DNA from: Alphaproteobacteria bacterium
Lineage (GTDB): Bacteria > Pseudomonadota > Alphaproteobacteria > RF32 > CAG-239
NCBI GenBank assembly: GCA_016288295.1
Contig: JAEEYV010000039.1
Coordinates: forward strand, 10,156-74,155
Reading direction: 5' to 3'
DNA length: 64,000 nt
The notes under the pieces were generated by a model. That model did not search any database and was not told the DNA's origin. It saw only the letters and a list, made by a program, of their open reading frames with translations. Positions 4,178 to 19,410 of this stretch are shown piece by piece. The position numbers and the translations under genes were made by a program. Position 1 is the stretch's first letter. Every line of letters starts with the position of its first letter.

Positions 4178-4267
4178 AATAAATATTGATTGATTGTTAG
4201 TAATATAAACAAAAATAAAAACACGCCCACAACCTAGCGTATTTTTATTAATTGTCAATCGTTTTTA
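4174..4267 (-). promoter_or_regulatory. promoter plus 5' leader cassette, copy 2
   Basis: Minus strand: TTGACA, 16-nt spacer, TAGGTT, then a leader homologous to 3551-3644. Confidence 0.5.
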
Positions 4268-4273
4268 CATACA

Positions 4274-4993
4274 TCATCTGGCATTATCGGGATATTCTTT
4301 TCTTTTTGAATTTGATTTTTTTCTACAGGTCATCAAATCATCTATTTTATAGCCTCGTGGGCTTAATTGCACCATATTCCATCCTCCATTTGGTTGCTTG
4401 ACCGCAATTGCCGACAGTATTCCTGCTGTTTGTACTCTTCCCTCTGGCGAAACAAGTTTATCCCCCGGCTTTAACAAAATAAAATATTGTTTAATCGGCA
4501 TTGGAAACTTCAACACATTTAGAGCCTTACCGGCATTTTCTTGCCACATTTTTTCATCAACCTTTTGCCCGTCTTGCGTTATCAATTTTACACCTTTAGC
4601 CCAGTGTAAATTACCATTCCATATTGCCGGTTCAGTATTTTTTGCCCCAAAATCCGCATAATCATACAGTTTTTCAATCATATCCTTAATCCCCTGCGGT
4701 GTTTTATGCCAATCAGGATATTTTTTCAAAACTTCATTAAAATCATTTTCATTATCATAAACAACCAAACAATCACCAGGCATCAGCTTCTGATTTTCAA
4801 ATTCCGGCCCTCTCTCACCTCGTTTCCAACGAGCCAACAAATCAACATCCAAATCATCAGGGTTTGTAAACCCCACAACCTCATCACACGCCGTCGGAAT
4901 AATAATCCTCGCACTTTCAGAAGACATACACACGCCTGCTTTGCCGGATTTTAACTCTTTATCCAACATATCATAGGTATAAATAGTCATCAT
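4274..4993 (-). CDS. hypothetical protein, 239 aa, basic C-terminus (RKKSNSKRKEYPDNAR)
   Basis: ORF in the track with GAGGAA just upstream of ATGATG. No family recognised. Confidence 0.55.
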   Translation of the reverse strand: MMTIYTYDMLDKELKSGKAGVCMSSESARIIIPTACDEVVGFTNPDDLDVDLLARWKRGERGPEFENQKLMPGDCLVVYDNENDFNEVLKKYPDWHKTPQGIKDMIEKLYDYADFGAKNTEPAIWNGNLHWAKGVKLITQDGQKVDEKMWQENAGKALNVLKFPMPIKQYFILLKPGDKLVSPEGRVQTAGILSAIAVKQPNGGWNMVQLSPRGYKIDDLMTCRKKSNSKRKEYPDNAR

Positions 4994-5115
4994 TTCCTCT
5001 CATTTGTTCTCATATCACTATTTTACCCGAAAAATTTCTGGTAATCAAGAAATATCATCCATGAACTACAAGGCAAATACTTGACTTTTTAGATAATTAA
5101 AATATTATCTCATCT

Positions 5116-5769
5116 ATGATTGAAATTGCTTTTGACAAACATTTAGATCCTTTCTTTAAGGAGCAAGAACACCCCTTATTGGATGTACCTGACTTATGCA
5201 ACAAACCCTTTGATGCATACATTTCATATGCACAAAAGGCAATTAAACAGTACCGATCTCAAAAATATTTAATTGCCATATCCGACGACAGTCATTTTGA
5301 CACCAACCTTTTGTCATTAGCATTTTTTATTGCCTCCTGTTTAGATAATCAAAATACTGTTGACTGCCTTGTAATTAAAAATGAAAACTATAAAAAAGCA
5401 TTTGAAAATTACAAACCTTATATTGCTATTTCAATCGGCATCAAATATGCATTGCGCTTGATAAAAGAACCAGCCGATGTTATATATAAAGAACTTAAAT
5501 GTCTTAACTATCTAAATTTTTCAATTAAAGAAGATTGTGTACAAAACACTATATGCTACACTTTCAATTCTCAAAACACATCATATATTACAACAAACAA
5601 TACCTTTGAGGCACTAGTTTATGCCTCACTTTACAAAATTCTTGCTCTGGCAGAAATTGAAATTCCATTTAACCTAAACATTAGAATAACTAGTGATACT
5701 AGAGATATAGATGCTAAAGAAATAATTTCAACTATATTAGAAAAAGTATCACCCTATATTAACATTTAA
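5116..5769 (+). CDS. hypothetical protein, 217 aa
   Basis: ORF in the track. No motif recognised. Confidence 0.5.
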   Translation: MIEIAFDKHLDPFFKEQEHPLLDVPDLCNKPFDAYISYAQKAIKQYRSQKYLIAISDDSHFDTNLLSLAFFIASCLDNQNTVDCLVIKNENYKKAFENYKPYIAISIGIKYALRLIKEPADVIYKELKCLNYLNFSIKEDCVQNTICYTFNSQNTSYITTNNTFEALVYASLYKILALAEIEIPFNLNIRITSDTRDIDAKEIISTILEKVSPYINI

Positions 5770-6740: not shown

Positions 6741-6986
6741 ATGAAAAAGAAAAAAAAGAAAGGTATGGTGACAAAACTTCGCCTTTTGCCACTGTACTGG
6801 AAAGTAATTGGAACGATTGCTATCTTCGGTGGCGGCGGTTGCTTGGCAAGTCAGTTGGTTACATCAGGGAGCGACGTGGGAGTATTTACAGGCATCATTC
6901 TTGCAGTGCTCGCTCTGTGGTTGCTCATTAACATGTGGCTACCCACAAAGGAGACTAACCCCCCCAAAAAACATCAACACAGTTGA
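6741..6986 (+). CDS. small membrane protein, 81 aa (2 TM), Lys-rich N-terminus
   Basis: ORF in the track, in a visibly G+C-richer patch shared with the downstream SPFH gene. Confidence 0.45.
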   Translation: MKKKKKKGMVTKLRLLPLYWKVIGTIAIFGGGGCLASQLVTSGSDVGVFTGIILAVLALWLLINMWLPTKETNPPKKHQHS

Positions 6987-7032
6987 TAACAATTTCAAAA
7001 AACAATTAAAAACAATTAAAAACAATTTGATC

Positions 7033-7920
7033 ATGAAGAAGAAAAATTTTTTGGTTATGGTTATGGCCATTTTTGTGGTCACAGTTTTCTCGTCGTGCAC
7101 TAGGGTCCCTCAGGGAACATTCGCGACCAAGACCTACGAATACGGAGACAGGAAGGGCGAGGTAGATATTCTTGGCCCAGGGTTGTATGCCAACCATTGG
7201 TTTGGCCGCTTTCACATCTACGTGTACCCCGCCAATGTGCAACAACACAGTTGGGTGAAAAGGAAAGATTCCGATGAACGGATCGCGTTCCAAGCCGAAG
7301 CTATGACGCTCAAGGCCGAAATAAACATCGAGTATGAGTTCTCGACCGTCGATGACGATCGCCGCAAAATGTACGTTTATTTCAAACGTACACCGCAAGA
7401 GATCGAAGAACAATTTATGAAGAAGGATATCGTGTCAGCGTTCAACACAGTATCGCAGACACTATCTGTCGAAGATGTTTATTCGACAAGAAAGGATAGC
7501 GTGAGGATTGCTGTACAGCAGATCGTACGAGACAAATATGCGCCTTACGGAATCCACATCAAAGAAGTAGCATACATGTCGCCCATTGATGTTCCTGAAG
7601 AAGTACGGGAAACGATAAATGCAAAAATTACGGCGACACAAGAGGCACAAAGGCGCGAAAATGAAGTTGCTAGCGAAAGAGCTGAGGCAATGAAAAAAAT
7701 TGAAAGGGCTCGCGGTGAAGCTGAAAGCATTAAAATCGCTGCTCAAGGCCGCGCGGAGGCAATTGACATAGAAGGTGCAGCCTTGCGTCGAAACCCCGAC
7801 ATCCTAAAATTGAAGCGCATCGAAACCCAAGCCATCGCAGCAAAATCAGCAGAAAACTGGAACGACCCAGTATTAGCTGCCGATCAAGCCAGTATTCTGC
7901 TAGGATTGGGTAAAGAGTAA
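7033..7920 (+). CDS. SPFH/band-7 (prohibitin/HflC-like) domain lipoprotein
   Basis: Start set at MKKKNFLV with lipobox VFSSC. SPFH-type core followed by an Ala/Glu/Arg-rich coiled coil (EAQRRENEVASERAEAMKKIERARGEAES). Confidence 0.75.
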   Translation: MKKKNFLVMVMAIFVVTVFSSCTRVPQGTFATKTYEYGDRKGEVDILGPGLYANHWFGRFHIYVYPANVQQHSWVKRKDSDERIAFQAEAMTLKAEINIEYEFSTVDDDRRKMYVYFKRTPQEIEEQFMKKDIVSAFNTVSQTLSVEDVYSTRKDSVRIAVQQIVRDKYAPYGIHIKEVAYMSPIDVPEEVRETINAKITATQEAQRRENEVASERAEAMKKIERARGEAESIKIAAQGRAEAIDIEGAALRRNPDILKLKRIETQAIAAKSAENWNDPVLAADQASILLGLGKE

Positions 7921-7937
7921 CCAAAAAACATTCACTC

Positions 7938-7975
7938 CGAAAGAGCGTTCACCTGAACGCTCTTTCGTTTATTTT
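7938..7975 (+). terminator. intrinsic terminator
   Basis: Perfect 13-bp stem cgaaagagcgttc / gaacgctctttcg, loop acct, then tttatttt. Confidence 0.85.
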
Positions 7976-8292
7976 AAGATTCTCAAAATTTGGAGTATTG
8001 TCCAACTAAACGAGAAAAATCCCTTGTTTCCAATAAGAAAACAACATAGACATCAAACAAAACAAGCCTATTTCAACTATCAAAAACCTACTGAAATATT
8101 TTTTTCTCATCGGCTCATATTTGCGCAAAATTTCAAACAACATCTTTTTCAATGTAACAATCCTAAATATCTTTTTAGATTACTTTAACAAACAAAACAT
8201 AAGGATATAGCCTCACTCCCCCATATTTAATCACCACTTTACTCCAAAAACATTGGCAAATCAATAAAATATCGTTTTTCATAACCTATCCT

Positions 8293-8321
8293 TTGACAAA
8301 CTCTATATCACGGTTTATAAA
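8293..8321 (+). promoter_or_regulatory. near-consensus sigma70 promoter of the CYTH-like gene
   Basis: TTGACA (8293-8298), 17-nt spacer, TATAAA (8316-8321). AGGAAG lies before the ATG at 8356. Confidence 0.55.
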
Positions 8322-8355
8322 ATTAGTATATATCATTGACAAAAGGAAGTCTTTT

Positions 8356-8983
<628 letters not shown>

Positions 8984-9701: not shown

Positions 9702-9777
9702 TGGCAGGGGCAGTAAGATTCGAACTCACGACACTCGGTTTTGGAGACCGATGCTCTACCAACTGAGCTATACCCCT
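9702..9777 (-). tRNA. tRNA-Trp (anticodon CCA), complete, CCA-3' encoded
   Basis: Folded by hand from the minus strand. Acceptor AGGGGTA/TGCCCCT. D arm GCTC-AGTTGGTA-GAGC. Anticodon arm TCGGT-CTCCAAA-ACCGA. T arm GTGAG-TTCGAAT-CTTAC. Discriminator G then CCA. Close to E. coli tRNA-Trp as I recall it. Confidence 0.93.
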
Positions 9778-9779
9778 AA
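9737..9779. repeat. left att core: 43-bp direct repeat (tRNA-Trp nt 1-41 plus 2 nt upstream)
   Basis: Identical to 19368-19410. Confidence 0.9.
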
Positions 9780-10152: not shown

Positions 10153-10974
10153 TTAAAATAAACTGTTTTGAATAACATTTGGCAAAGGGAATAATCCTAT
10201 AATAATGAAAGGATTTTTTGCTCGCCCGTGAAATTGTCTTGTTGTTCCTAAAAAGAAGTATAAATCTTTCTTTTTTGCATAATCTTCAAAAAACTTTTCT
10301 TTAATTTTTTGAAGTGCCATTTCTTCACTACCATAATGTTTTTTCCAGTTCCAAAATGCCGCACCAACTTCCCAGTCCTCAATCATTAAAGTAGATCGCT
10401 TGCCATTAATATCTTCAAAGATATATGAAAATTTATAGGGTAATTTATCTACAATCTTAAACACATCAACATCTTCATCTTTATTTGAAAATAAACTTAA
10501 TTGTTTTCTTTCAGCTTCTATAGCAGCCAATCTTTCTTTTGGGTACTCCCTGGAATCTTCTTCCCAGATAAAATCTATAATTTTCTTAGGTTTAAAAACT
10601 GCTAAAGACATATTGGTGGTGTTTGATTGTTTGATAAGTTTCGATAAATCATCATAAATTGCTTTTTTCAAAACAATATTACTTTTGCGTCCCCAGTCAT
10701 TAGATTTAATTTGTTCTAGTAGTTTTATCCTCTCGTAATCAACTTTATAACTCTCAATGCGTGGATCATCGTTTCCTTTATACATCCTAGCTTCAATCCA
10801 TCTATATTTACCATATTGTTTGTCATCATCTAACTTTCTAAATGGAATTGGATATAGTCTGTACCAATTTCCATCCTCATCCATACCGGCAGTACAAACA
10901 AGTTCTACATATTTCTTAGATATTGATGGATAAGTTTTTACAAGAATCAAAATTTTTTTAGTTATAAAGTCCAT
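10153..10974 (-). CDS. hypothetical protein, 273 aa, no family recognised (KTYP...VCTAG...WYRLYPIPFR N-terminal block)
   Basis: ORF in the track. Its ATG (10972-10974) directly abuts the TAG stop (10975-10977) of the upstream gene. Confidence 0.7.
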   Translation of the reverse strand: MDFITKKILILVKTYPSISKKYVELVCTAGMDEDGNWYRLYPIPFRKLDDDKQYGKYRWIEARMYKGNDDPRIESYKVDYERIKLLEQIKSNDWGRKSNIVLKKAIYDDLSKLIKQSNTTNMSLAVFKPKKIIDFIWEEDSREYPKERLAAIEAERKQLSLFSNKDEDVDVFKIVDKLPYKFSYIFEDINGKRSTLMIEDWEVGAAFWNWKKHYGSEEMALQKIKEKFFEDYAKKKDLYFFLGTTRQFHGRAKNPFIIIGLFPLPNVIQNSLF

Positions 10975-11853
10975 CTATATATGCTCCAATTCTAAATCTG
11001 GTCTCTTTTTGATTATAGCATTTGCTACTCTAGCACGGTGACACATATGGTAATCTGCTTCAAAACAGGTTAAGGCAACACGCTTATAGCGTTCTATCAA
11101 GTCAAGAATTTTATCTAAATAATATTCAGACTTAGCTAATGTCGTTTTTTCATATATTGAAAATAATTTGTTATAATCTGCCATAGTATTTAATTCAGTT
11201 CTTTGTTCAGACTCTATACCTAATTCAGGAATATTTATATAGGACAAACCAACCCGTTCTATTATATTTTGCATAGATGATTTAGAAAATCCATACTTCC
11301 TACTTATAGGATTTCGCCGAACATCACATACCAACTTGACATTATTTTGAATTAATCTGTTAATATAGCCATCTATACTGTCAGCTTCATATCCGATAGT
11401 AAAAAGTTTTCGTTTATTTGAAACTTCCAGTGTATATCTATTGGAATCTGGGCAGATTCTATCAAATATTTCACTTTTTAGAGTATAATATGGGTATTTT
11501 TCATATACATACTTAATTAAGTCATCTCCCTTATATTTGGAGTATATTTCCTTAAACTTTACAATTTTACTCTTATCAGAATTTTCTAATAATGAAATAA
11601 AATCAGCTTCTTTATCTCTTAACTCAATCTTATCGTTATAGGTGATATATTGGGATTGTTCCAAATTTCTAATATCTGCATAAGATTGGAAAGAAAAACA
11701 ACCAAACCTATAAGGAACAAAGGTATAATCCTTTTTATCTTTTGGTTGGCATATTTGTGTATATAAAAATAAATATTTTTGAAAATCTGTTTTATCAAGA
11801 CATCCACCAAATGCCTGCAAAAGCGATAAAACTAATTTTTGCCTGTAAAACAT
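10975..11853 (-). CDS. DUF488 domain protein with an N-terminal extension of about 150 aa (possibly SocA/Panacea DUF4065-like)
   Basis: C-terminal half carries DUF488 hallmarks: LVCDVRRNPISRKYGFSK, GLSYINIPELG, ALTCFEADYHMCHR. The N-terminus FQKYLFLY...FVPYRFGCFSF resembles the xLQKLLYx...yGP pattern. That assignment is from memory only. Confidence 0.7.
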   Translation of the reverse strand: MFYRQKLVLSLLQAFGGCLDKTDFQKYLFLYTQICQPKDKKDYTFVPYRFGCFSFQSYADIRNLEQSQYITYNDKIELRDKEADFISLLENSDKSKIVKFKEIYSKYKGDDLIKYVYEKYPYYTLKSEIFDRICPDSNRYTLEVSNKRKLFTIGYEADSIDGYINRLIQNNVKLVCDVRRNPISRKYGFSKSSMQNIIERVGLSYINIPELGIESEQRTELNTMADYNKLFSIYEKTTLAKSEYYLDKILDLIERYKRVALTCFEADYHMCHRARVANAIIKKRPDLELEHI

Positions 11854-11941
11854 TGTATTTCCTTAAATGATCTTTATAAGGTGATAATATATAAAAATAA
11901 AAGAATTTCAATAATTTTATTTAATTCTGCAATGGGGAATA

Positions 11942-12292
11942 TTAAAACTTAGTGAGCTCTAAAAGAGCTTCAATTTGTTTTTGAATGGTTTTGAGCGTAC
12001 GTGTGTCTTGGTTTTTAATCAGTTTTAATATGGCTTGCACATTCTCCGGCAGTTCCTCAATCGGTGGTTGCTCGTTGTCACTAAACAAAGAATCCACCGG
12101 AACATTCAAAGCTTCAGCCAAAGATAACAAAGTTGTTATTTTCGGATCGCTTAAACCTCGTTCTATATTGGAAATTGTGTTAATCATCTTGCCGGAAACT
12201 TCCGCAAATTCTTCTTGGTTCATTCCTTGTTGTTTGCGGAGTGTGGCAATTCGTCTACCTAAAGTTTTTAAAATTATATTTGATTCGGTCAT
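11942..12292 (-). CDS. XRE-family helix-turn-helix transcriptional regulator
   Basis: LRKQQGMNQEEFAEVSGKMINTISNIERG is a classic HTH_3 motif. 116 aa. Confidence 0.85.
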   Translation of the reverse strand: MTESNIILKTLGRRIATLRKQQGMNQEEFAEVSGKMINTISNIERGLSDPKITTLLSLAEALNVPVDSLFSDNEQPPIEELPENVQAILKLIKNQDTRTLKTIQKQIEALLELTKF

Positions 12293-12408: not shown

Positions 12409-12449
12409 GTGTTTATGTTTTGCGATTATTCATAGTGGAGTGTATAAAA

Positions 12450-13376
12450 ATGAATCAGCCGAATATTTTTGATTATGCCACAAGTGAATTATCGCAAGAT
12501 GCTTTTCTTTGTTATATGTTGGCATTTGGAAAGGAAAAATATAAAAAGGATTTTCCTAATGAATACGTCATGGCACATATGTTTCTGGAAAAGTGTGAAA
12601 TTGATAAAAATGAAGAAATTTTATCAATCCAGCGTCAAGTAGATAATATAGATGTCTTAGTAGTAACGCAAAACTATATTCTTATTATTGAAGATAAGAC
12701 ATATACTAATGAACACGATGACCAAATCATTCGCTATGTTCGGAATATGCGTTCTCATGAAGAAAAGATTAATTCCGATAAGAAAATCAAAGTGTGTTAT
12801 TTCAAAACTGGAAATTATGTATATGGATATAAATCCTCCGATTGTTCTATTCTTCCGCAAAACGATTGCTGTTCACTCAAACGCCAAGATATGTTGGATA
12901 TTTTAAAGGATAAATGTTTCGGCAACATAATTTTTGAAAGTTTTTATCAACGGCTCAACTCTGTAGAGGAACGTGTAAAAGCCTGTGATGACACTGATAT
13001 TATGACTTGGAATAGCGAAAAATGGTTTGATTATCTTTATAATACATTGCAGGGGCATAATTTTAATATAGGTTGGGTACCTAATGCGAGCGGTGGTTTT
13101 TATGGCTGTTGGTTTGATTGGCGTGATGTGCTTAGCGGTGAAGATTACAAACAAATAGAAGTTTCTTTTGCCGACGGGAAAACATCACAAGTTAAATTGT
13201 GCTATAAGTTCTCCAGTAAAAGCAAAGAAATAACGCTTAATAGTAAATCTTTGTTAAAAGATTTACAGAGCAAGGTTGCGAAAGGTTTTAAATCAGCTAA
13301 TCGCATGGGAAAAACAACAACATATGCTTATAAAATCGCTGAAAACAAAAGTGATGTAGAAAAATTTATAGGATAA
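12450..13376 (+). CDS. PD-(D/E)XK nuclease superfamily protein
   Basis: N-terminal NIFDYATSELSQDAFLCYML block, typical of stand-alone PDDEXK proteins. Core IDVLVVTQNYILIIEDK (D...E-x-K) followed by DDQIIRY. Start set at the ATG at 12450. Confidence 0.7.
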   Translation: MNQPNIFDYATSELSQDAFLCYMLAFGKEKYKKDFPNEYVMAHMFLEKCEIDKNEEILSIQRQVDNIDVLVVTQNYILIIEDKTYTNEHDDQIIRYVRNMRSHEEKINSDKKIKVCYFKTGNYVYGYKSSDCSILPQNDCCSLKRQDMLDILKDKCFGNIIFESFYQRLNSVEERVKACDDTDIMTWNSEKWFDYLYNTLQGHNFNIGWVPNASGGFYGCWFDWRDVLSGEDYKQIEVSFADGKTSQVKLCYKFSSKSKEITLNSKSLLKDLQSKVAKGFKSANRMGKTTTYAYKIAENKSDVEKFIG

Positions 13377-13391: not shown

Positions 13392-13862
13392 ATGAATAAA
13401 ATACATAAATATTTTTTATTTGCATTTGGTTTTTCTTTTGTGGGGTATATTATTTGCAAATACTCTTTTTTACCAATTTGCAAATTCATTGCAAGCTTTT
13501 TTGATTGTGATTATGCGGTAGTTGCTTTGGGCATCTATCTGATAATTTTTGTTATTATTGGGTATGTGTTGAAAATGGTGAAAACAGATATAACAACGGA
13601 AACTTATTACAAAAATAATTTTACACCGGCAAAAGCCATTATATTAGCAACTATATTAATATTTTTTCACATTAATTTAATAAAAGACACCACAAGAATG
13701 GACAAAGAGGGGAAAATTTTAAACTTATACAGCACAATATTTGCTGAAAAATCTGAGAATAACAATATTAAGGAGGTAAAAAATGAGACAAATATTAAAG
13801 CCACAAAAAATAATGATTTTAGTTCTGATTCTGATACTGACGGGATGCGCTACAGAGATTAA
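13392..13862 (+). CDS. hypothetical membrane protein, 156 aa
   Basis: ORF in the track with 3-4 hydrophobic segments. Its 3' end overlaps the next gene by 80 nt, so the true extent is uncertain. Confidence 0.4.
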   Translation: MNKIHKYFLFAFGFSFVGYIICKYSFLPICKFIASFFDCDYAVVALGIYLIIFVIIGYVLKMVKTDITTETYYKNNFTPAKAIILATILIFFHINLIKDTTRMDKEGKILNLYSTIFAEKSENNNIKEVKNETNIKATKNNDFSSDSDTDGMRYRD

Positions 13863-14007
13863 ATCCTTACCAGAAATCGTTTCTACAAATGATTTTTGCA
13901 AAATATATGAGCCAATGTTACCTAGCCGAAAAGATACAAAGGAAACAGCTGAGCATGTTTTCAAATATTATAAAATCTGGAAAGAAAAATGTCATAACAG
14001 CAACTAG
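13783..14007 (+). CDS. small lipoprotein, 74 aa
   Basis: AAGGAGG 7 nt upstream of the ATG. Signal peptide with lipobox LTGC. Confidence 0.6.
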   Translation: MRQILKPQKIMILVLILILTGCATEIKSLPEIVSTNDFCKIYEPMLPSRKDTKETAEHVFKYYKIWKEKCHNSN

Positions 14008-14019
14008 AGGGTTTGTCTA

Positions 14020-14409
14020 ATGAAATCATATTTATTGTTATTAGTATTTGCATGGCTGATAGTGAAATGTTGGGGATTTTTCATATTTTTTAGTATATGT
14101 GTTATTATTTTTTATTTCAGATGCTTTTCGCATTTGATAATGGTAAAAAAAACAAGGAATCATATTTGTGAGCTTATGCTTAAATATGACGATGAAGAAA
14201 TTGTTTCTCGTATTTTAAATCAAAGTTTTTGGATTGGACAAACTGCTTCACAATTACTAGATTCTTTGGGCAATCCAGCTGATATTAGCGAATGGCGTAG
14301 TACTAAAGAATTTGGTGAAACATGGAAATATATTCAAACCGGTAAAAATCGTTATGCCTTAAAAATATATCTTGTCAATGATCAGGTTAGTGGATGGGAT
14401 AAAAAATGA
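14020..14409 (+). CDS. membrane-anchored protein, 129 aa, with a BamE/SmpA-OmlA-like C-terminal domain (tentative)
   Basis: N-terminal TM segments. C-terminal FWIGQTASQLLDSLGNPADI...WKY...KIYLVNDQVSGW resembles the small beta-sandwich lipoprotein pattern. Confidence 0.45.
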   Translation: MKSYLLLLVFAWLIVKCWGFFIFFSICVIIFYFRCFSHLIMVKKTRNHICELMLKYDDEEIVSRILNQSFWIGQTASQLLDSLGNPADISEWRSTKEFGETWKYIQTGKNRYALKIYLVNDQVSGWDKK

Positions 14410-14801
14410 GAAATATTAATCGCTTAAAGGAAGAAAAATTTTCATTCGGAATTAATGATATTATAAAAGATGCTACTATAGCATTTGTAGTTTGCTTGAT
14501 ATTATATTTATTTACCCAGCAATCCTTTATATTTGTTTTATTTATACCATTTTCTATCGCAGCAATAATTGGTGATTTAGTGAGAAAATATACAAGACCG
14601 AACGCTATTTCTACTAGAGGAAAAGCTTGGAAAGTATTGAATAATAAAATTTATTGGAGTATAGGACCTCAGATTGAAGCAATAATTTTATCTATTTTCT
14701 TTTTTTATATTTTTGTTCAAATGATAGGGGCAATTTCTTCACCTGAAAATCAAAAAAATGTAATATCCAATGTAAGAGAATCCGTTAGTTACAGGGATTA
14801 A
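14406..14801 (+). CDS. hypothetical membrane protein, 131 aa
   Basis: ATGA overlap with the upstream gene. Three hydrophobic segments. Confidence 0.5.
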   Translation: MRNINRLKEEKFSFGINDIIKDATIAFVVCLILYLFTQQSFIFVLFIPFSIAAIIGDLVRKYTRPNAISTRGKAWKVLNNKIYWSIGPQIEAIILSIFFFYIFVQMIGAISSPENQKNVISNVRESVSYRD

Positions 14802-14883
14802 ATGATATATTTCCGACTATATTTGTGACGCGTCGTTAGAACAATGGCGCGTTTGTTTTTTTATTTCATGAAAGGTAAAAACA

Positions 14884-15174
14884 ATGGCGCAAATATATGC
14901 TACAAATGATATATATTTTTTTCCGAAGGTGGTAAAAGTGTTTTTAGTTAGCGATAAATACGAAGCTGATTTATGGTTCTACAAAACAAGAGATATTTAT
15001 GAGGCTGATTGCAAAGATGAAATTTGGTATTTTTCCGATAGTGAATATGGTGCAACAGCAGTTATTTGTTGGGTTGATGATAAATATGATGCAGATATTT
15101 GGGTTTATCAGGTTCGGGATAAATACGAAGCTAGATGGAATAAAGGCAATAAATTTTTAGGGCGGCTAAGTTAA
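14884..15174 (+). CDS. small repeat protein, 96 aa, five D-x-Y-[EDG]-A-[DTR] units (DUF6150-like, tentative)
   Basis: Repeats DKYEADLWFY, DIYEADCKDEIWYF, SEYGATAVICWV, DKYDADIWVY and DKYEARW are visible in the translation. Confidence 0.55.
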   Translation: MAQIYATNDIYFFPKVVKVFLVSDKYEADLWFYKTRDIYEADCKDEIWYFSDSEYGATAVICWVDDKYDADIWVYQVRDKYEARWNKGNKFLGRLS

Positions 15175-15231: not shown

Positions 15232-17577
15232 TTAATAATTTTCTGCCAAAGCGTAAACTTCGGGATTTACATAATAAGTAGTCCGGCGTTTGCCTTTGGT
15301 TGTTCCGGCGCGTGTGCATTCATAACGTAGCCAATTCAGCTCCACCAATCTTTTAGCGGCAGTTTCTGTCGGCTCCTTGCGGCGCAGATATTTTACCGTG
15401 CCATTGTTATAAACATCACGTAAAATAAAGCTTTCAGGTTTGTTTTCGATAATCCATCGAGCCAATGCTCGTGCCTCAATATTATATACCGGACTATAAT
15501 ACATATAATAAACACGTTCACACATAGGTAATAAATAGGTATCGTAAAGATTTATAGCTGCCTTGACCGCGTCTTCGCTGACTTCTGTCGGCTCAGTAAA
15601 TTCCGAATTACTCCACCACAAAAGCTCTAAAAGTAACGCAAGCCTAAGGACATAACCTTGTCCTTTGCCAAGAAAATATTTGATATTGCTTTCTTCCTGC
15701 TGGGTTCTGGTTAAATGTTCAATATACCAAGTGCTAAAAACATCTTTTGCTTTTATACTTAATGGCAAGCATTTTTTCTGTTCTTCTGCAAAATCTGCAT
15801 ATGGATTTAATAAAGTATCCAGTTTTTGCAATGCTTTAAGCGCGGTTTCCGGCAAAGCAATATTTTGCGGTATAGCAGGCGGTATCACCGCTGGATACAC
15901 CCAAAGAAAGCGGGCAAGGAAGCCGTCGCCGCGCTCATCAAAAACCGTGTCTACGAGCCTTTGAGGCTGTATAGTGCCGAACACCGATACCAACAGATTT
16001 TTAATTTCTAATCGGTCGTCGTCATATTTAACGCGGTCGCATACAAACTTGTGCCCGTTAAATGCCTCGAGCCAAAAACCGCGCTCGGAACTGCCGCTGT
16101 TGTAACGATTCATACCACAAATCCACGCCGACAATTCATCGCGGAAAAGAATAGCCCCCTTTATGTTGCGCTCCATATCTTTGGTGATTGCCTCTTGTGT
16201 AGTATCACCGTAAACAAAGCGATATGTTTGCGGTTTTGCCGGAATAATAGCGGCATTTGGAAAATTGCTTGCAGTATCGGGATTTTCTTTGACCTTTTCT
16301 TCCCATTCTTTTTTGCGTTGCTTAGCAACTTCTCTAGTACGTTTCCATTCTGCTAGTTTTGCAAAATAAGGCTCTTTATGGTCTTCCTCAATTTGATTCA
16401 AAATACGCCGAATAGGAGTAGTTGCCGGTGTTTTGCCGGAGCTTGGCTCTCCGACAGCACCAATCCATAAACAGCATGGTTCAATCCATTCAGCCCAAGG
16501 TGAAACAGAACGCGACAAACCAATAACACCTGCTGCGCCGGCTAGCAATGAAAATGCCACATAGTCAACCGGCGCATTAGTATTTTGTGCCGTTTGCACT
16601 ACCCACGGCTCCAAGCTTTTAAATATGCTTGTATCAAGCCGTGGCGCCGGTAACAAGTCCTTAGTTTTAAGAATATCCATATCCGGTTCTGTGTCTGCTT
16701 GATTATCGCTGTGAGCTTCTGAAAACTTGATAGCATTGCTAACTGTTTTTACTGTCTCTGCTTTTGTTAATCCTGATTCAAGCGCGGCATTTACAACATC
16801 TTCTTTGATTTCAGAAATATCGCGAAATTGCCTATCTGCACTATTACAAATTTTGATAGTATTACTTAACAATCTATCGTTCCGTGTTCCCTCAGGAGCG
16901 TTGGCTATTTCATCAAGCAACATATCAATATCTGTTTTTTCGGGATTGTTAATTAAATCAATCAACCATTCTGGTGCAGTTGGAAAATCTTGACTAAAGT
17001 CAAAATTAACCCAAGTATATTTATTACCGTTTTCGTGAATAGATGGTGGTGCTACAACATAGCCTCCATTACCGCGTATATCAATATGCGGAGCTATTTT
17101 ACTCGTACTGCATTTGATTTCTACCCATTCCGGCATTTTGAAATACAAATGCTTACCTTTTCCGGTGCTAACGGTCGGGGCTTTGAGTTTACCATATTTA
17201 TTTTCAAACTCAGCTAAAGATTTTGCGCCGCTTTCACCATCTACATCAACAACAAAGATATTATTGATTGCTCCGGTCGGAATGCCTATATTGCAATCTG
17301 GAAATTGCTTATTCCATTCCTGCAATACGACTTTATCAGCGGTTGCGTCATTAAAACCATGCGGGCAAAGCGGTGATTTGCCTTGCTTTTTTACCGGAAA
17401 GGTTTTAATATTGCTTTGTGCGTAAAATGTAGCAATATCCAAAAAGTTGGTCGCTTCGTTGATATTGCAAACATTTTGGTTATTGAGAGCAGATGCGCTA
17501 ACATCTTCTCTCGGAGGGAGTGGAGAGGCTTGCGCCTCTCGCTCCATTTGTTCAATTAAAATGTTTTTTAGTTTCAT
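15232..17577 (-). CDS. bifunctional Prim-Pol domain fused to a P-loop NTPase (DUF3987/YfjI- or D5-like) replicase
   Basis: N-terminal PLCPHGFNDAT...IFVVDVDGE...GKGKHLYF...IDIRGNGGYVVAPPSIHENGNKYTW is the Prim-Pol pattern. Central Walker A GEPSSGKTPA. 781 aa. Confidence 0.85.
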   Translation of the reverse strand: MKLKNILIEQMEREAQASPLPPREDVSASALNNQNVCNINEATNFLDIATFYAQSNIKTFPVKKQGKSPLCPHGFNDATADKVVLQEWNKQFPDCNIGIPTGAINNIFVVDVDGESGAKSLAEFENKYGKLKAPTVSTGKGKHLYFKMPEWVEIKCSTSKIAPHIDIRGNGGYVVAPPSIHENGNKYTWVNFDFSQDFPTAPEWLIDLINNPEKTDIDMLLDEIANAPEGTRNDRLLSNTIKICNSADRQFRDISEIKEDVVNAALESGLTKAETVKTVSNAIKFSEAHSDNQADTEPDMDILKTKDLLPAPRLDTSIFKSLEPWVVQTAQNTNAPVDYVAFSLLAGAAGVIGLSRSVSPWAEWIEPCCLWIGAVGEPSSGKTPATTPIRRILNQIEEDHKEPYFAKLAEWKRTREVAKQRKKEWEEKVKENPDTASNFPNAAIIPAKPQTYRFVYGDTTQEAITKDMERNIKGAILFRDELSAWICGMNRYNSGSSERGFWLEAFNGHKFVCDRVKYDDDRLEIKNLLVSVFGTIQPQRLVDTVFDERGDGFLARFLWVYPAVIPPAIPQNIALPETALKALQKLDTLLNPYADFAEEQKKCLPLSIKAKDVFSTWYIEHLTRTQQEESNIKYFLGKGQGYVLRLALLLELLWWSNSEFTEPTEVSEDAVKAAINLYDTYLLPMCERVYYMYYSPVYNIEARALARWIIENKPESFILRDVYNNGTVKYLRRKEPTETAAKRLVELNWLRYECTRAGTTKGKRRTTYYVNPEVYALAENY

Positions 17578-17906
17578 TTCATACCTCCGCTTTTATAACT
17601 AAAAATTTGTGGTCGACTTTTAATAATTTCATTTTTTGTATTCTCCTTTTCATTTTCGGGGTTGCAAAATTTCTTTTTTATGTATAGGATTACATCGTTT
17701 ACATCATAGTAAGCTTTGCCGTTTACGTAGTAAACTTCGCCTATTCCTTTTTCTGGGTTTTCATAATCAATATTTCGTAATGTGTTTCTGCTCAGAAATG
17801 GGAGTATTTCGCAAAGCTTAACTCGGCTAATTAAAGGTGCTTGTTCGAGAAGTTTACTTTTGTAAATTTCAAAGAATCTTGGCGATAAATCATTGTTTTT
17901 CTTCAT
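17574..17906 (-). CDS. AlpA/excisionase-like HTH DNA-binding protein
   Basis: ISRVKLCEILPFLSRNTLRNI...VNGKAYYDVNDVILYI fits the MerR-type Xis/AlpA fold pattern. Start set at MKKNND (AGGAA RBS). Stop overlaps the replicase ATG (ATGA). Confidence 0.6.
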   Translation of the reverse strand: MKKNNDLSPRFFEIYKSKLLEQAPLISRVKLCEILPFLSRNTLRNIDYENPEKGIGEVYYVNGKAYYDVNDVILYIKKKFCNPENEKENTKNEIIKSRPQIFSYKSGGMK

Positions 17907-18066
17907 TTTTCGTTTCCTTTTTCGAAAGTTATGAAAAAACACCATTGTTTTTTCGCGCTATAACGACCAAAGACCTCAATTCACCTTTTTTGGGTGCAAA
18001 AATATTTTGAGTGCGGAACTAAAAAAAAGCCCCGAAATAATAAACAAAATAATATGTTAAACTGCT

Positions 18067-19194
18067 CTAATTAAGCTTAGAAACAGCCTCTCGTAGCGTT
18101 TCATTTGCCAAGTGTGAATAGCGTTGAGTCATTGCAATATCGGAATGTCCTAACAGTTCTTTGACTTCGTAAAGTGAAACGCGTTTTTGCACTAACCGAC
18201 TGGCAAATGTGTGCCTTAAAGAATGAAAAACTACTTTTTGCCTGCGGTCTGTAACACCTTTATTTAATCCCAATGCTTTGACTGCACGTTCAAAAGTGCG
18301 TGAAACGTGTTCTATTTTCTTTCCCTCTCTGCTTTGAAAGATTAATTCATTGCCTTCATGCTGTTTTAATTTTGAAAGTTCATCAAAAACACGGTCTGTC
18401 ATATAGGCATAACGATTCTTACTATTTTTGGTATCACGCAAAAATAGCATTTTTTCTTCTAGGCTTACATCTGCCCAAGTAAGTCTGAAAATTTCTCCGG
18501 CGCGTAGTCCGCAATCGGCGGAAATAAGTGCCATTACATAAACTTGATAGCTATGTTTCTTTATTTCTGTTAAAAGATTGTTTAAATCTTCTTCGCTTAA
18601 AAACTTTACACGTTGATTATCTTCCTTTTTCAGCTCGTCAAATCTTGCTGCTGGATTTTCCCCTGCAAATAGCTCATATTTAATTGCAAAATTGAAAACT
18701 TGTCGCGTTAGTGCAATAGCATAGCGTTTCGTACGATTAGATAAATGTTTTTTATCCATAGCTTGAATTAACCTAGTGAGGCTTTTGAGGCTAATGAGGT
18801 TTAACTTAACATCTCCCAAAAAAGGTCTAAGCCATACTTTATATAGGTTAACTTCTCTGTCATATGTTGATTTTTTGTCTTTATTTTGAATATGCGGCTG
18901 ATAATATTCTTCAAAAAGCTCCGAGAACGTCATATTTGCCGCCTCATTAGCAATTCTTTCTTGTTCGCGTTGGTTGTTTTTATCGCGTAAAGAAGATACT
19001 TTACCTGCTTTTATATCTTGTTTTAATTCTTTTAAAATTTCGTAGGTTTTTTCTGCCGTAAATCCGTCTGATTTATAACCGATGCCTTCTTCACACTGCT
19101 TACCGTTTTTGGTATAGCGAATAGAAAAGTAAATATCTTTTCTACCATTTCTTATGCGATTTGCTGTTCGCACTCCAGGAAAACTTTTTACCAT
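18067..19194 (-). CDS. tyrosine recombinase / phage-type integrase
   Basis: C-terminal catalytic blocks: ADCGLRAGEI (Arg), HSLRHTFAS (H-x-x-R), LGHSDIAMTQRYSH (His, Tyr). Start set at MVKSFPG with a GGAGA RBS. Confidence 0.9.
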   Translation of the reverse strand: MVKSFPGVRTANRIRNGRKDIYFSIRYTKNGKQCEEGIGYKSDGFTAEKTYEILKELKQDIKAGKVSSLRDKNNQREQERIANEAANMTFSELFEEYYQPHIQNKDKKSTYDREVNLYKVWLRPFLGDVKLNLISLKSLTRLIQAMDKKHLSNRTKRYAIALTRQVFNFAIKYELFAGENPAARFDELKKEDNQRVKFLSEEDLNNLLTEIKKHSYQVYVMALISADCGLRAGEIFRLTWADVSLEEKMLFLRDTKNSKNRYAYMTDRVFDELSKLKQHEGNELIFQSREGKKIEHVSRTFERAVKALGLNKGVTDRRQKVVFHSLRHTFASRLVQKRVSLYEVKELLGHSDIAMTQRYSHLANETLREAVSKLN

Positions 19195-19367
19195 TTCAAA
19201 ATCTCCGTTTCGGTTTATCTGATACCTAAAGTATACCGAAACGGTTCGGAAAATCGAGAACACCTAGGTACGCCAAGGTACGCTAGGCAAAAAATTTTTT
19301 TTGCTTAAACTGTTTGAAAAATCAATAAAAAATGTGGAAATTTAAATACTTGGAAAATTCTATTTTG

Positions 19368-19410
19368 GGTTTTGGAGACCGATGCTCTACCAACTGAGCT
19401 ATACCCCTAA
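19368..19410. repeat. right att core: orphan 5' half of tRNA-Trp
   Basis: Identical to 9737-9779. The sequence to its left (19321-19367) has no similarity to the tRNA 3' half. Confidence 0.9.

What the first reader, a model, noticed from the sequence alone, without database searches (positions are those of the whole stretch)
10153..11853. Translationally coupled two-gene cargo module (extended DUF488 protein plus unclassifiable 273-aa partner): best candidate for an undescribed conflict/defence system
Seen in sequence: the 292-aa gene ends with TAG at 10975-10977 and the 273-aa gene starts with ATG at 10972-10974, so stop and start abut (TAGATG) and expression is obligately coupled. The C-terminal half of the first protein carries DUF488 hallmarks (CDVRRNPISRKYGFSK, SYINIPELG, LTCFEADYHMCHR). 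Its first ~150 aa are an extra domain whose FQKYLFLY...VPYRFGCFSF pattern reminds me of the SocA/Panacea (DUF4065) antitoxin-type domain. The partner (KTYP...VCTAGMDEDGNWYRLYPIPFRKL...) matches nothing I recognise and has no obvious catalytic motif. Context: the pair sits at the distal cargo end of an int/alpA/Prim-Pol element, next to an XRE regulator and a PD-(D/E)XK nuclease. Established: P4-like satellites and similar islands concentrate anti-phage and toxin-antitoxin systems in such cargo slots. DUF488 has no assigned function. Inference: a two-component toxin-antitoxin, abortive-infection or nucleic-acid-targeting module.
Basis: partly seen in the sequence, partly recalled or inferred. 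Interest (0 to 1): 0.8.

Follow-up and report, generated by a model that had tools for sequence, protein, structure and literature searches.

The report
Catalogued, untested DUF488/OB-fold defence candidate pair
The two coupled genes are real and form a very widespread, tightly conserved pair that often sits beside or inside restriction-modification systems, but PADLOC already lists it as the untested phage-defence candidate PDC-M19, so it is a good experimental target rather than an undescribed system.

Summary
Gene A (292 aa, 11853-10975) ends in TAG, and the ATG of gene B (273 aa, 10974-10153) follows directly.

A has a C-terminal DUF488 domain (Pfam E 7.5e-23). Its N-terminal domain is plausibly, but only weakly, SocA/Panacea-like. 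B has no Pfam family; a confident AlphaFold model resembles tandem OB-fold DNA binders (RPA70, HIN-200).

The pair is not undescribed. Both proteins match, full length, the PADLOC candidate system PDC-M19 (E 1e-102 and 8e-100). This is one of 145 candidates predicted from embedding in restriction-modification (RM), BREX or DISARM loci. I found no experimental test of it.

In 79 of 80 species genomes carrying B, a gene A homologue lies immediately upstream, with a short or overlapping junction. The two proteins co-evolve (r = 0.76). RM genes are the only recurrent neighbours, including Mod-A-B-Res arrangements.

In this window the pair is cargo of a 9.6-kb integrative island at tRNA-Trp, bounded by 43-nt direct repeats.

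Most likely it is an RM-linked defence module: an OB-fold nucleic-acid binder partnered with a cysteine-phosphatase-like enzyme acting on nucleic-acid termini. That mechanism is inferred, not shown.

The parts
10975..11853 (-). Gene A (292 aa): PDC-M19A-type protein, an N-terminal Panacea-like domain plus a C-terminal DUF488 domain.
   Evidence: ORF and translation. PADLOC PDLC04505 E 1.2e-102, residues 1-291. Pfam DUF488 E 7.5e-23. AlphaFold2 model with pLDDT 93.1 and pTM 0.89.
11434..11853 (-). N-terminal domain of A (about residues 1-140): possible distant SocA/Panacea (YwgA-like) domain. A related module is matched at the C-terminal end of one PADLOC type I specificity-subunit model.
   Evidence: Pfam SocA_Panacea E 0.023, below the cut-off. 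Weak hits in 11 of 119 members, and DUF7078 hits in 42 of 119. hhalign against a YwgA/Panacea-like family: probability 68.9%, E 4.5e-5. PADLOC Specificity_I PDLC03184 positions 431-549, E 1.7e-7. The domain is missing from the DUF488 partners of divergent B relatives.
10978..11415 (-). DUF488 domain of A (about residues 147-292): a Rossmann-like alpha/beta domain resembling cysteine phosphatases.
   Evidence: Pfam PF04343, 81.9 bits against a cut-off of 22.2. Weak Foldseek hits to DUSP/PTP phosphatases, the capping-enzyme RNA triphosphatase, viral DUF488 proteins and RapZ-C. Invariant residues T152 G154 Y155 E156 D177 R179 N181 S184 R185 K186.
11035..11067 (-). Invariant C263-F-E-x5-C271-H-R273 motif, lying between strand 258-263 and helix 273-283. 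This is the position of a PTP/rhodanese active-site loop.
   Evidence: Invariant columns. Secondary structure of the model. Reading it as an active site is inference.
10972..10977 (-). TAG stop of A abutting the ATG start of B, same frame, no spacer.
   Evidence: Junctions of -4 to +4 nt predominate across the 79 species genomes measured.
10984..10987 (-). SD-like GGAG, 9 nt upstream of B's ATG, inside the 3' end of A.
   Evidence: Read directly from the sequence.
10153..10974 (-). Gene B (273 aa): PDC-M19B-type protein, predicted tandem OB-fold nucleic-acid-binding subunit with no Pfam family.
   Evidence: PADLOC PDLC04508 E 8e-100. No consistent Pfam hit in 120 members. Model pLDDT 85.4. Foldseek hits to RPA70, HIN-200, Teb1 and SSB. 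21 aromatic and 11 basic residues are at least 90% conserved; pI 9.1.
11884..11911 (-). Promoter-like site (TTGAAA-16-TATTAT), about 30 nt upstream of A's ATG.
   Evidence: It is a consensus match only, and such matches are not more frequent here than in shuffled sequence.
11942..12292 (-). XRE/HTH_3 regulator (116 aa), upstream on the same strand. It accompanies the pair only in this island lineage, so it is context rather than a core part.
   Evidence: Pfam HTH_3 E 8e-16. PADLOC HTH_VI and capH-like. Conserved upstream of the pair in L001-L005 only.
9737..9779 (.). att repeat copy 1 (43 nt), overlapping the 5' part of tRNA-Trp (9702-9777, minus strand): the island boundary next to gene B.
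19368..19410 (.). att repeat copy 2 (43 nt, identical), just beyond the integrase gene: the other island boundary.
   Evidence: Similarity to related scaffolds ends exactly at 19410.
15232..19263 (-). Island backbone: tyrosine integrase (18067-19263), a 123-aa protein (17574-17945) and Prim-Pol/DUF3987 (15232-17577).
   Evidence: Pfam.

Best explanation
**What it is.** The pair is a member of PDC-M19, a two-gene phage-defence candidate catalogued in PADLOC. Here it is carried as cargo on a 9.6-kb integrative island at tRNA-Trp.

**Proposed working model**
1. B is a basic protein with tandem OB folds. It binds single-stranded nucleic acid or DNA ends and acts as the sensing or targeting subunit.
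2. A is made with B through a tightly coupled junction. It supplies the chemistry through its DUF488 domain, a cysteine-phosphatase/rhodanese-like domain with an invariant C263...C271-H-R273 loop and a basic R-x-N-P-x-S-R-K loop.
3. That domain is predicted to transfer or remove a terminal phosphate on a nucleic-acid end or a nucleotide sugar. The effect would be to damage or mark invading DNA or RNA.
4. The Panacea-like N-terminal domain of A would regulate or tether the enzyme.
5. The module works alone, as in this window. It is also often linked to restriction-modification (RM) systems, possibly acting on their cleavage products or backing them up.

**Shown:** gene structure, family membership, strict pairing, co-evolution, RM association, and the fold-level resemblances.
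**Inferred:** the defence function itself, nucleic-acid binding by B, the phosphotransfer chemistry, and a physical complex between A and B.
For: **Family membership.** Both proteins match the PDC-M19A and PDC-M19B models over their full length (E 1.2e-102 and 8e-100). PDC systems were defined from genes embedded in BREX, DISARM or type I RM loci.

**Pairing**
- A lies immediately upstream of B in 79 of 80 species genomes spanning many phyla.
- Most junctions measured in those 79 genomes lie between -4 and +4 nt.
- Pairwise identities of A and B correlate (r = 0.76, Mantel p <= 0.001).
- Even B relatives at 28-36% identity keep an adjacent DUF488 gene. This holds in most viral-contig loci, in Gordonia phage BatStarr and on Rhizobium plasmid pRL8.

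**Context**
- RM families are the only recurrent neighbours: Eco57I, N6_Mtase, MmeI_Mtase, ResIII, Methylase_S and HsdR (PADLOC view).
- Mod-A-B-Res arrangements occur in L086, L088, L027 and L045.
- A type IIG methyltransferase precedes the pair in L085.
- The pair is adjacent to type I and type II RM systems and to TA genes in L125 and L124.
- In BatStarr the pair lies between the immunity repressor and the integrase.

**Folds**
- B's best structural matches are RPA70, HIN-200, Teb1 and SSB (E down to 5e-5, probability 0.93-0.99).
- B has 21 aromatic and 11 basic residues that are at least 90% conserved, and a pI of 9.1.
- A's DUF488 domain matches DUSP/PTP phosphatases, the cysteine-type RNA triphosphatase of the capping enzyme, viral DUF488 proteins and RapZ-C.
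- The sister family DUF4326 is predicted to process terminal phosphates on ribose (PMC9503650).
Against: - I found no experimental test of PDC-M19. The name appears in no paper of the library.
- In this window there is no RM system within the island. Some instances sit among housekeeping genes (L123).
- The pair is rare on viral contigs: 31 loci among 2.9 million.
- Structural matches for DUF488 are weak (E 3e-3 to 0.3, TM 0.3-0.6 on the target). The top hit is a tetrapyrrole-type methyltransferase.
- B's tandem-OB matches have low TM scores (0.2-0.4). Only single-OB matches superpose well (TM on the target 0.5-0.63).
- No recognisable nuclease or other classical effector is present.
- Conservation of 42-53% identity across phyla is higher than is usual for fast-evolving immune genes.
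- The loop has C-x9-R or C-x-R spacing, not the canonical C-x5-R of PTPs.
Confidence: 0.45

Rival explanations
1. Toxin-antitoxin or abortive-infection module. The Panacea-like N-terminal domain of A would act as an antitoxin-type neutraliser, holding in check either B (in trans) or the fused DUF488 domain (in cis). Phage infection or loss of the element would release the toxic activity and stop growth.
For: - The N-terminal domain shows weak but convergent similarity to SocA/Panacea. From my own knowledge (Kurata et al. 2022 PNAS), the Panacea domain neutralises many unrelated toxin domains.
- The genes form a tightly coupled two-gene operon.
- The pair lies in TA-rich islands (L125) and on mobile elements.
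- An XRE regulator lies upstream here.
- Annotators of phage BatStarr noted gp42, the DUF488 protein, as toxin-like.
Against: - The Panacea similarity is below Pfam's cut-off (16 bits against 25.7), and Foldseek gave no Panacea hit.
- Divergent pairs lack the N-terminal domain yet keep DUF488 plus B, so that domain is not the core of the system.
- From my own knowledge, Panacea antitoxins pair with many different toxins. Here the partner is invariant and co-evolves.
- Both proteins are large (292 and 273 aa) and well conserved, unlike typical type II TA pairs.
- B looks like a nucleic-acid binder, not a known toxin.
Confidence: 0.25
2. Accessory or repair factor of restriction-modification systems, not an autonomous immune system. 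An ssDNA/end-binding protein plus an end-processing enzyme would heal or mark DNA ends made by RM enzymes. This could limit self-damage, or feed fragments to recombination or CRISPR adaptation.
For: - The pair recurs inside or next to type I, II, IIG and III RM loci, co-directional with Mod and Res.
- The N-terminal domain of A matches the C-terminal part of a PADLOC type I specificity-subunit model.
- Conservation is high across phyla.
- The only DUF488 phenotype in the library concerns DNA metabolism: deleting E. coli yeaO skews CRISPR spacer acquisition (bioRxiv 10.1101/2024.05.24.595836).
Against: - Many instances have no RM neighbour, including this window and L123. The pair also travels alone on a phage, on plasmids and on islands.
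- The neighbouring RM type varies, which argues against a specific biochemical partnership.
Confidence: 0.17
3. Function serving the mobile element itself, for example replication or recombination help (an SSB-like protein plus an end-processing enzyme), or counter-defence against host immunity.
For: - The pair is found on an integrative Prim-Pol island, on conjugative plasmids including Sulfolobus plasmids, and in a temperate phage.
- B has an OB fold like SSB and RPA.
Against: - Most instances are chromosomal, and the pair is not consistently linked to replication or transfer genes.
- The pair is very rare in viral contigs.
- In BatStarr it sits in the lysogeny/immunity region, not among replication genes.
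Confidence: 0.08

Closest known systems
PADLOC-DB phage defence candidate PDC-M19 (Payne et al., bioRxiv 10.1101/2024.01.29.577857)
   Same: Both proteins match the most specific PDC-M19A and PDC-M19B models end to end (E 1.2e-102 and 8e-100). The genes are adjacent and co-directional. Relatives are embedded in RM loci, which is how PDC systems were defined.
   Different: In this window the pair is not embedded in an RM, BREX or DISARM locus. It is cargo at the end of a tRNA-Trp integrative island. PDC-M19 itself has no published phenotype, domain analysis or mechanism that I could find.
[quoted passage not shown]
   Same: Strong Pfam match. All 119 family members also touch the DUF488-N3a model weakly. 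The C-x-E...C-H-R hallmark is retained. Fold matches go to PTP/DUSP phosphatases, the capping-enzyme triphosphatase, viral DUF488 proteins and RapZ-C.
   Different: This protein carries an extra N-terminal domain of about 140 aa and has an obligatory OB-fold partner. No DUF488 protein has a demonstrated activity. The loop spacing differs from the C-x5-R of canonical PTPs.
Panacea (SocA, DUF4065, PF13274) antitoxin-domain systems (PanA/PanT)
   Same: The N-terminal domain of A shares the K-x2-(Y/F)-L...(Y/F)-x-(F/Y)-x3-Y-G-(P/C)-(Y/F)-S core with a YwgA/Panacea-like family (hhalign probability 69%). The genes form a coupled two-gene operon on mobile islands.
   Different: The match is below Pfam's threshold. 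The partner is fixed rather than variable. The domain is dispensable in divergent pairs. Here it is fused to an enzyme-like domain.
RM-embedded guard genes such as PrrC (anticodon nuclease within type I RM loci)
   Same: Both sit between or beside RM subunit genes. The PDC paper names PrrC as the archetype of an embedded defence gene.
   Different: There is no sequence or fold relationship. The pair also occurs alone. There is no evidence that it is silenced by, or monitors, the RM complex.
Tandem OB-fold DNA binders: RPA70 DBD-A/B, HIN-200 domains (AIM2, IFI16, p204), Teb1
   Same: These are the best structural matches of B (E 5e-5 to 1e-3, probability 0.93-0.99). B is rich in conserved aromatic and basic residues.
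   Different: Sequence identity is 5-10% and TM scores are only 0.2-0.4. The second half of B carries long helical insertions. There is no evidence of common descent with eukaryotic HIN domains.
PADLOC candidate PDC-M45 (subunits B and C)
   Same: The DUF488 domain of A also matches PDC-M45B and PDC-M45C (E 1.7e-14 and 1.9e-10). DUF488 therefore recurs in RM/BREX-embedded candidate systems.
   Different: The match covers only the DUF488 domain. I saw no counterpart of B in that system's models.

Membership tests
PADLOC candidate system PDC-M19 | A protein matching a PDC-M19A model. | tested here: met
   PDLC04505 E 1.2e-102, protein residues 1-291 against model positions 1-293 of 294.
PADLOC candidate system PDC-M19 | A protein matching a PDC-M19B model. 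| tested here: met
   PDLC04508 E 8e-100, protein residues 5-273 against model positions 3-269 of 269.
PADLOC candidate system PDC-M19 | The two genes adjacent on one strand. | tested here: met
   The stop of A abuts the start of B. The same order is seen in 79 of 80 species genomes.
PADLOC candidate system PDC-M19 | Embedding in an RM, BREX or DISARM locus (the criterion by which PDC systems were found; not needed for every instance). | tested here: not met
   There is no RM gene in the island. The criterion is met in relatives L027, L045, L086 and L088.
Anti-phage defence system (functional class) | Protection against phage infection when expressed. | not testable with these tools
   I found no published test. 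PDC systems are predictions.
DUF488 (Pfam PF04343) | Score above Pfam's gathering threshold. | tested here: met
   81.9 bits against 22.2, residues 160-279 against model positions 2-120 of 121.
Rhodanese-phosphatase (PTP-like) superfamily | Rossmann-like fold with a conserved Cys in the loop between a strand end and a helix start, plus an Arg. | tested here: inconclusive
   C263 lies at the end of strand 258-263 and R273 at the start of helix 273-283; both are invariant. Foldseek hits to PTP/DUSP and the capping-enzyme triphosphatase are only E 4.5e-3 to 0.3. The spacing is not C-x5-R.
Rhodanese-phosphatase (PTP-like) superfamily | Phosphatase or phosphotransfer activity through a Cys intermediate. 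| not testable with these tools
   Needs an enzyme assay.
SocA/Panacea domain (Pfam PF13274) | Score above Pfam's gathering threshold. | tested here: not met
   16.0 bits against 25.7, E 0.023 for residues 1-145. Only 11 of 119 members give any hit; best E 0.0075.
SocA/Panacea domain (remote homology) | Profile-profile similarity over the conserved core. | tested here: inconclusive
   hhalign probability 68.9%, E 4.5e-5, 71 columns, against a YwgA-type family in which some members carry PF13274. No Panacea hit by Foldseek.
Type II toxin-antitoxin system | One product toxic alone and neutralised by the other. | not testable with these tools
   Needs expression experiments.
OB-fold nucleic-acid-binding proteins (tandem, RPA/HIN-like) | Five-stranded beta-barrel(s) that superpose on known OB domains. 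| tested here: inconclusive
   Single-OB matches: Rim1 SSB with TM on the target 0.63 and rmsd 3.6; an RPA domain with 0.52. Tandem matches to RPA70 and HIN have probability 0.93-0.99 but TM 0.2-0.4.
OB-fold nucleic-acid-binding proteins (tandem, RPA/HIN-like) | Binding of ssDNA, dsDNA or RNA. | not testable with these tools
   Indirect evidence only: pI 9.1 and conserved aromatic and basic residues.
Integrative island (tyrosine-integrase element at a tRNA gene) | Integrase gene plus flanking direct repeats, one of them in a tRNA gene. | tested here: met
   Phage_integrase E 2.9e-33. A perfect 43-nt repeat, one copy of it inside tRNA-Trp. The same island sits between different outer flanks in other scaffolds.

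The most novel reading that the evidence does not exclude
The pair could be an autonomous immune system with a new kind of effector chemistry. A HIN/RPA-like tandem-OB sensor would recognise phage DNA ends or ssDNA intermediates. It would hand them to a DUF488 cysteine-dependent enzyme that removes, transfers or covalently traps a terminal phosphate or sugar-phosphate on the nucleic acid, so that invading DNA cannot be replicated, ligated or packaged. This would give DUF488, a domain found across bacteria, archaea and viruses, its first function. It would also reveal a prokaryotic counterpart of OB-fold DNA sensing in innate immunity.
Probability: 0.15. Interest if true: 0.8.

Novelty: new member of a known kind. 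Interest (0 to 1): 0.5.

Why it matters
DUF488 is a large domain family found across bacteria, archaea and viruses, and it has no demonstrated activity. In the library searched, the only phenotype is an E. coli yeaO deletion that skews CRISPR spacer acquisition.

The B family is also large. It comprises 2813 clusters at 50% identity, occurs in at least 572 of the species genomes scanned, and has no Pfam model.

Several features make PDC-M19 one of the better-defined untested candidates:
- strict pairing of the two genes;
- co-evolution of the two proteins;
- translational coupling;
- recurrent placement beside or inside type I, II, IIG and III restriction-modification loci.

A positive test would name a widespread defence system and assign a biochemical role to two orphan families. 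It could also uncover phosphotransfer on nucleic-acid ends as an immune mechanism.

For the genome scan, the practical lesson is that a PADLOC search would have labelled this locus at once.

Tried and rejected
1. **Read-through or split gene.** Stop and start are in the same frame, which could suggest read-through, recoding or a split gene. Rejected: in the 79 other genomes measured the junction takes all frames, with overlaps of 4 or 1 nt and gaps up to 46 nt. No fused protein appears among the best 150 representatives of the B family.
2. **Sequence searches of the PDB.** Single proteins and family profiles found nothing. NCBIfam found nothing.
3. **Gordonia phage CarolAnn defence genes 43/44.** I considered these because B relatives occur in related Gordonia phages. 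They are RexAB-like and unrelated.
4. **ARPP (PMC9503650).** This is a rhodanese-phosphatase-associated protein with a conserved Cys and Gln in a beta-barrel, which loosely resembles B (invariant C27 and Q158). I had no ARPP sequence, and its reported partners do not include DUF488, so this stays an untested lead.
5. **Counting RM adjacency per locus.**
   - A [DNS]PP[YFWH] methyltransferase motif was too crude: 15 of 78 loci near the pair against 9 of 61 further away.
   - phmmer with six seed proteins was too insensitive: hits in 12 of 80 loci.
   - The Pfam and PADLOC tallies give gene counts, not exact per-locus fractions.
6. **Wider search with the N-terminal domain.** A family HMM of that domain, run against all ORFs of the fetched loci, gave one non-family hit. 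That hit led to the hhalign test.
7. **Burroughs & Aravind 2023.** The paper could not be read, so its content is cited from memory only.
8. **Rfam.** A scan of the whole window found only the tRNA.
Full report
**1. The observation**

The two ORFs are real and lie on the minus strand. Gene A is 11853..10975 (292 aa) and gene B is 10974..10153 (273 aa). The TAG stop of A (10977-10975) is followed directly, in the same frame, by the ATG of B (10974-10972). An SD-like GGAG (10987-10984) lies 9 nt upstream of B's ATG, inside the end of A. Coupling is therefore likely, but 'obligate' is too strong. A promoter-like hexamer pair (11911-11884) lies just upstream of A, but such matches are no more frequent here than in shuffled sequence. 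The pair has 28-31% G+C, against 36-40% in the flanks outside the island.

**2. Context in the window**

The stated neighbours are confirmed:
- an XRE/HTH_3 regulator (11942-12292, same strand);
- a divergent PDDEXK_4 nuclease (12420-13376);
- small membrane-like ORFs and a DUF6150 gene;
- Prim-Pol/DUF3987 (15232-17577);
- a 123-aa protein with no Pfam hit;
- a tyrosine integrase (18067-19263).

A perfect 43-nt direct repeat (9737-9779 and 19368-19410) bounds a 9.6-kb island. One copy overlaps tRNA-Trp at 9702-9777. The same island, 96-99% identical, occurs in other gut-metagenome scaffolds. Similarity to those scaffolds stops at the repeat (19410) and just beyond the tRNA (9698), and gene calls beyond those points differ from the window's. 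The closest genome is a rumen 'uncultured proteobacterium' MAG (L005, B 92% identical). The closest named relative of A is from Candidatus Scatocola faecipullorum, order Rhodospirillales.

**3. What the proteins are**

*Protein A.* Residues 160-279 match Pfam DUF488 (E 7.5e-23). B has no Pfam or NCBIfam family.

*The decisive result.* In PADLOC-DB, A matches PDC-M19A (E 1.2e-102) and B matches PDC-M19B (E 8e-100), each over the full length. PDC systems are 145 'phage defence candidates'. They were predicted because members are embedded inside BREX, DISARM or type I RM loci, and were then added to PADLOC (Payne et al., bioRxiv 10.1101/2024.01.29.577857). The string 'PDC-M19' occurs in no paper of the library. 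Papers that tested or discussed other PDC systems do not mention it. The pair is therefore catalogued but uncharacterised.

*Model of A.* AlphaFold2 models built from family alignments are confident: A has pLDDT 93.1 and B has 85.4. A has two domains.
- The DUF488 domain (about residues 147-292) is a Rossmann-like alpha/beta domain.
  - Against the PDB its matches are weak (E 3e-3 to 0.3). Among them are the cysteine-type RNA 5'-triphosphatase of the mammalian capping enzyme, dual-specificity phosphatases and the Sulfolobus PTP. The top hit, however, is a tetrapyrrole-type methyltransferase.
  - Against viral models it matches viral DUF488 proteins, PTP/DUSP phosphatases and RapZ-C proteins.
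[quoted passage not shown] I cite that paper (Burroughs & Aravind 2023) from memory, because it is not held.
- A held paper from the same group describes the sister family DUF4326 as a rhodanese-phosphatase clade predicted to process terminal phosphates on ribose (PMC9503650).
- Invariant residues of the family include T152 G154 Y155 E156, D177 R179 N181 S184 R185 K186 G188 F189 S190, and C263 F264 E265 ... C271 H272 R273.
- C263 ends strand 258-263 and R273 starts helix 273-283. This is the position of a PTP/rhodanese active-site loop, but the spacing is not C-x5-R.

The evidence is weak but points one way:
- The window's domain alone gives Pfam SocA_Panacea E 0.023, which is 16 bits against a cut-off of 25.7.
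- 11 of 119 family members give sub-threshold hits, and 42 of 119 hit DUF7078.
- My family HMM of the domain found one non-family ORF in the ORFs of all fetched loci (L030:9593-10141).
  - That ORF hits SocA_Panacea at E 8e-4.
  - It belongs to a 'YwgA' family, some members of which carry PF13274.
- hhalign between the two family alignments gives probability 68.9% and E 4.5e-5 over 71 columns. The aligned core is QKYLFLFTQ...YEFVPYKYGCFSF in A.
- Foldseek gave no Panacea hit.
- The domain also matches the C-terminal 120 positions of one PADLOC type I specificity-subunit model (E 1.7e-7).

*Protein B.*
- Its best structural matches are tandem OB-fold DNA binders: RPA70 (E 5e-5), HIN-200 domains of p205, an AIM2-like protein, IFI16 and p204, Teb1, and the Oxytricha telomere-end-binding protein. 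Probabilities are 0.93-0.99 but TM scores only 0.2-0.4.
- Single-OB proteins superpose better: Rim1 SSB has TM on the target 0.63, and an archaeal RPA domain has 0.52.
- B is basic (pI 9.1). Of its 273 residues, 85 are at least 90% conserved, including 21 aromatic and 11 basic residues.
- I could not inspect the model coordinates, so the topology is not verified.

**4. Distribution and linkage**

- The B family has 5284 clusters at 90% identity and 2813 clusters at 50% identity with E <= 1e-3. The best 150 representatives are stand-alone proteins of up to about 330 aa, mostly 260-290 aa, with no fusion to a DUF488 protein.
- The 80 loci kept span many phyla. They include Pseudomonadota, Bacteroidota, Bacillota, Cyanobacteria/Gastranaerophilales, Planctomycetota, Acidobacteriota, Verrucomicrobiota, Spirochaetota and Nitrospirota.
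- In 79 of these 80 loci an A homologue lies immediately upstream on the same strand. The exception is cut by a contig end.
- Junction spacing: -4 nt in 13 loci, -1 in 11, 0 in 2, and +1 to +4 in 31. The rest range up to +46 nt.
- Pairwise identities of A and B over 71 loci correlate (r = 0.76, Mantel p <= 0.001). Mean identity is 42% for A and 53% for B.
- Only 31 loci were found among 2.9 million viral contigs. In 29 of them a DUF488 ORF is adjacent. B relatives at 29-36% identity pair with short DUF488 proteins of about 200 aa that lack the N-terminal domain. The conserved core is therefore DUF488 plus B.
- More distant B relatives (28-35% identity) occur in three further settings:
  - on plasmids such as Rhizobium pRL8, where the DUF488 gene is convergent;
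  - in Gordonia CZ1 temperate phages, where BatStarr gp43 is B-like and gp42 is a DUF488 protein (Pfam E 1.2e-29), lying between the immunity repressor and the integrase;
  - on Sulfolobus plasmid pSOG2, where the downstream partner is not DUF488 but a 168-aa protein with a PD-(D/E)xK-like motif that I read by eye only.

**5. Neighbours elsewhere**

For the two genes on each side of the pair in the 80 genomes, the only recurrent Pfam families are RM families. Counts are upstream + downstream:
- Eco57I 7+4;
- N6_Mtase 6+4;
- ResIII 5+8;
- MmeI_Mtase 4+2;
- Methylase_S 3+2;
- SWI2_SNF2 3+2;
- HsdR parts.

All other families are singletons or near-singletons. PADLOC shows the same picture: type I, II, IIG, III and IV components, PglX, mad2 and PbeA.

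Loci with precomputed annotation show:
- Mod-A-B-Res in L086 and L088;
- a methyltransferase just upstream of the pair in L087;
- a type IIG enzyme followed by A-B in L085;
- a type II RM and integrase remnants in L124;
- a type I RM and TA genes in L125;
- one solo insertion between ndk and holC in L123.

phmmer with seed proteins adds Mod-A-B-Res arrangements in L027 and L045. I could not obtain an exact per-locus fraction. My motif and seed counts were too crude.

**6. Interpretation**

*Shown:* a real, coupled gene pair; membership of PDC-M19; strict pairing and co-evolution; variable genomic context with recurrent RM association and carriage on mobile elements.

*Inferred:* a defence function, from context only. 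B would be a nucleic-acid-binding sensor or targeting subunit. DUF488 would be a cysteine-dependent phosphotransfer enzyme acting on nucleic-acid termini or nucleotide sugars. The N-terminal domain would be a regulatory or tethering module.

I put about 0.7 on 'conflict/defence module', but only about 0.25 on the specific chemistry. The overall confidence in the stated explanation is 0.45.

*Rivals:*
- a Panacea-type toxin-antitoxin or abortive-infection module (0.25);
- an RM accessory or end-repair factor (0.17);
- a function serving the mobile element itself (0.08).

*Points against a simple defence reading:* no recognisable nuclease, unusually high conservation across phyla, rarity on viral contigs, and instances among housekeeping genes.

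**7. Novelty and score**

The locus is a new member of a catalogued but untested candidate family. It is not an undescribed system, and a PADLOC run would have labelled it. What this analysis adds:
- the domain anatomy (Panacea-like domain, DUF488 domain, and a tandem-OB partner);
- the finding that DUF488 plus B is the conserved core;
- the co-evolution of the two proteins;
- the range of RM types involved;
- relatives in a temperate-phage immunity region and on archaeal plasmids.

Interest is 0.5. A defence-systems specialist would not be surprised by the locus, but it is a well-defined and widespread target that could give DUF488 its first function.

Noticed in passing
window 9702-9779 and 19368-19410: The 43-nt att repeat covers the 5' part of tRNA-Trp (minus strand), not the 3' end. 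The integrase lies at the far end of the island from the intact tRNA. In related scaffolds, similarity to the window ends at the repeat (19410) and just beyond the tRNA (9698), and the outer flanks differ.
   Followed up: partly
window 8562-8603 (ORFs 8293-8625 and 8693-8983): A (GA)n dinucleotide repeat of about 21 units lies at the end of a 110-aa ORF, giving an ERERER... tail. It is followed by a 96-aa ORF that looks like the continuation of one gene. This may be a phase-variable or broken gene. By eye it resembles a CYTH-like protein; I did not test that.
   Followed up: no
window 11942-12292 (-) and 12420-13376 (+): The XRE regulator matches the PADLOC capH model almost end to end (E 5.8e-10), but no CapP-type peptidase is nearby. 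It is divergent from a PDDEXK_4 nuclease whose core weakly matches the single-gene candidate PDC-S26 (E 1.5e-7). That nuclease may be a second defence-type cargo gene.
   Followed up: partly
window 13392-15174: The remaining island cargo is unexplained. It comprises a 156-aa and two overlapping 129/131-aa hydrophobic proteins with no family hit, and a DUF6150 ('Septknot') protein.
   Followed up: no
L120 (Gordonia phage BatStarr, KX557273.1) 4007-5265: gp43 is a distant B relative. The convergent gp42, annotated 'toxin in toxin/antitoxin, HipA-like', is actually a 150-aa DUF488 protein (Pfam E 1.2e-29). The two lie between the immunity repressor and the integrase, a position that in my understanding often holds prophage defence genes.
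   Followed up: partly
L121 (Sulfolobus islandicus plasmid pSOG2) 3995-5355: An archaeal B relative (32% identity) is followed, with a short overlap, by a 168-aa protein rather than a DUF488 gene. That protein has a PD-(D/E)xK-like 'EIDLVAL...AFEMK' pattern, seen by eye and without a Pfam hit. This hints that B can pair with a different effector.
   Followed up: partly
PADLOC model PDLC03184 (Specificity_I), positions 431-549: The N-terminal domain of A (residues 22-131) matches the C-terminal extension of a type I RM specificity-subunit model (E 1.7e-7). This suggests that some HsdS proteins carry the same module.
   Followed up: no
L025:733-1554 and L058:9138-9989: In two genomes the A homologue keeps only about the first 110 positions of the N-terminal domain. 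Both are about 270-285 aa long and both have the ATGA overlap with B. In L025 a type IIG-like gene lies immediately downstream of the pair.
   Followed up: no
window 6808-7000: The 370-aa ORF at 6808-7920 begins with about 60 residues that look non-coding. The 7000-7999 bin is the most G+C-rich sampled between 4000 and 26000 (0.45). Rfam found no RNA family there.
   Followed up: no
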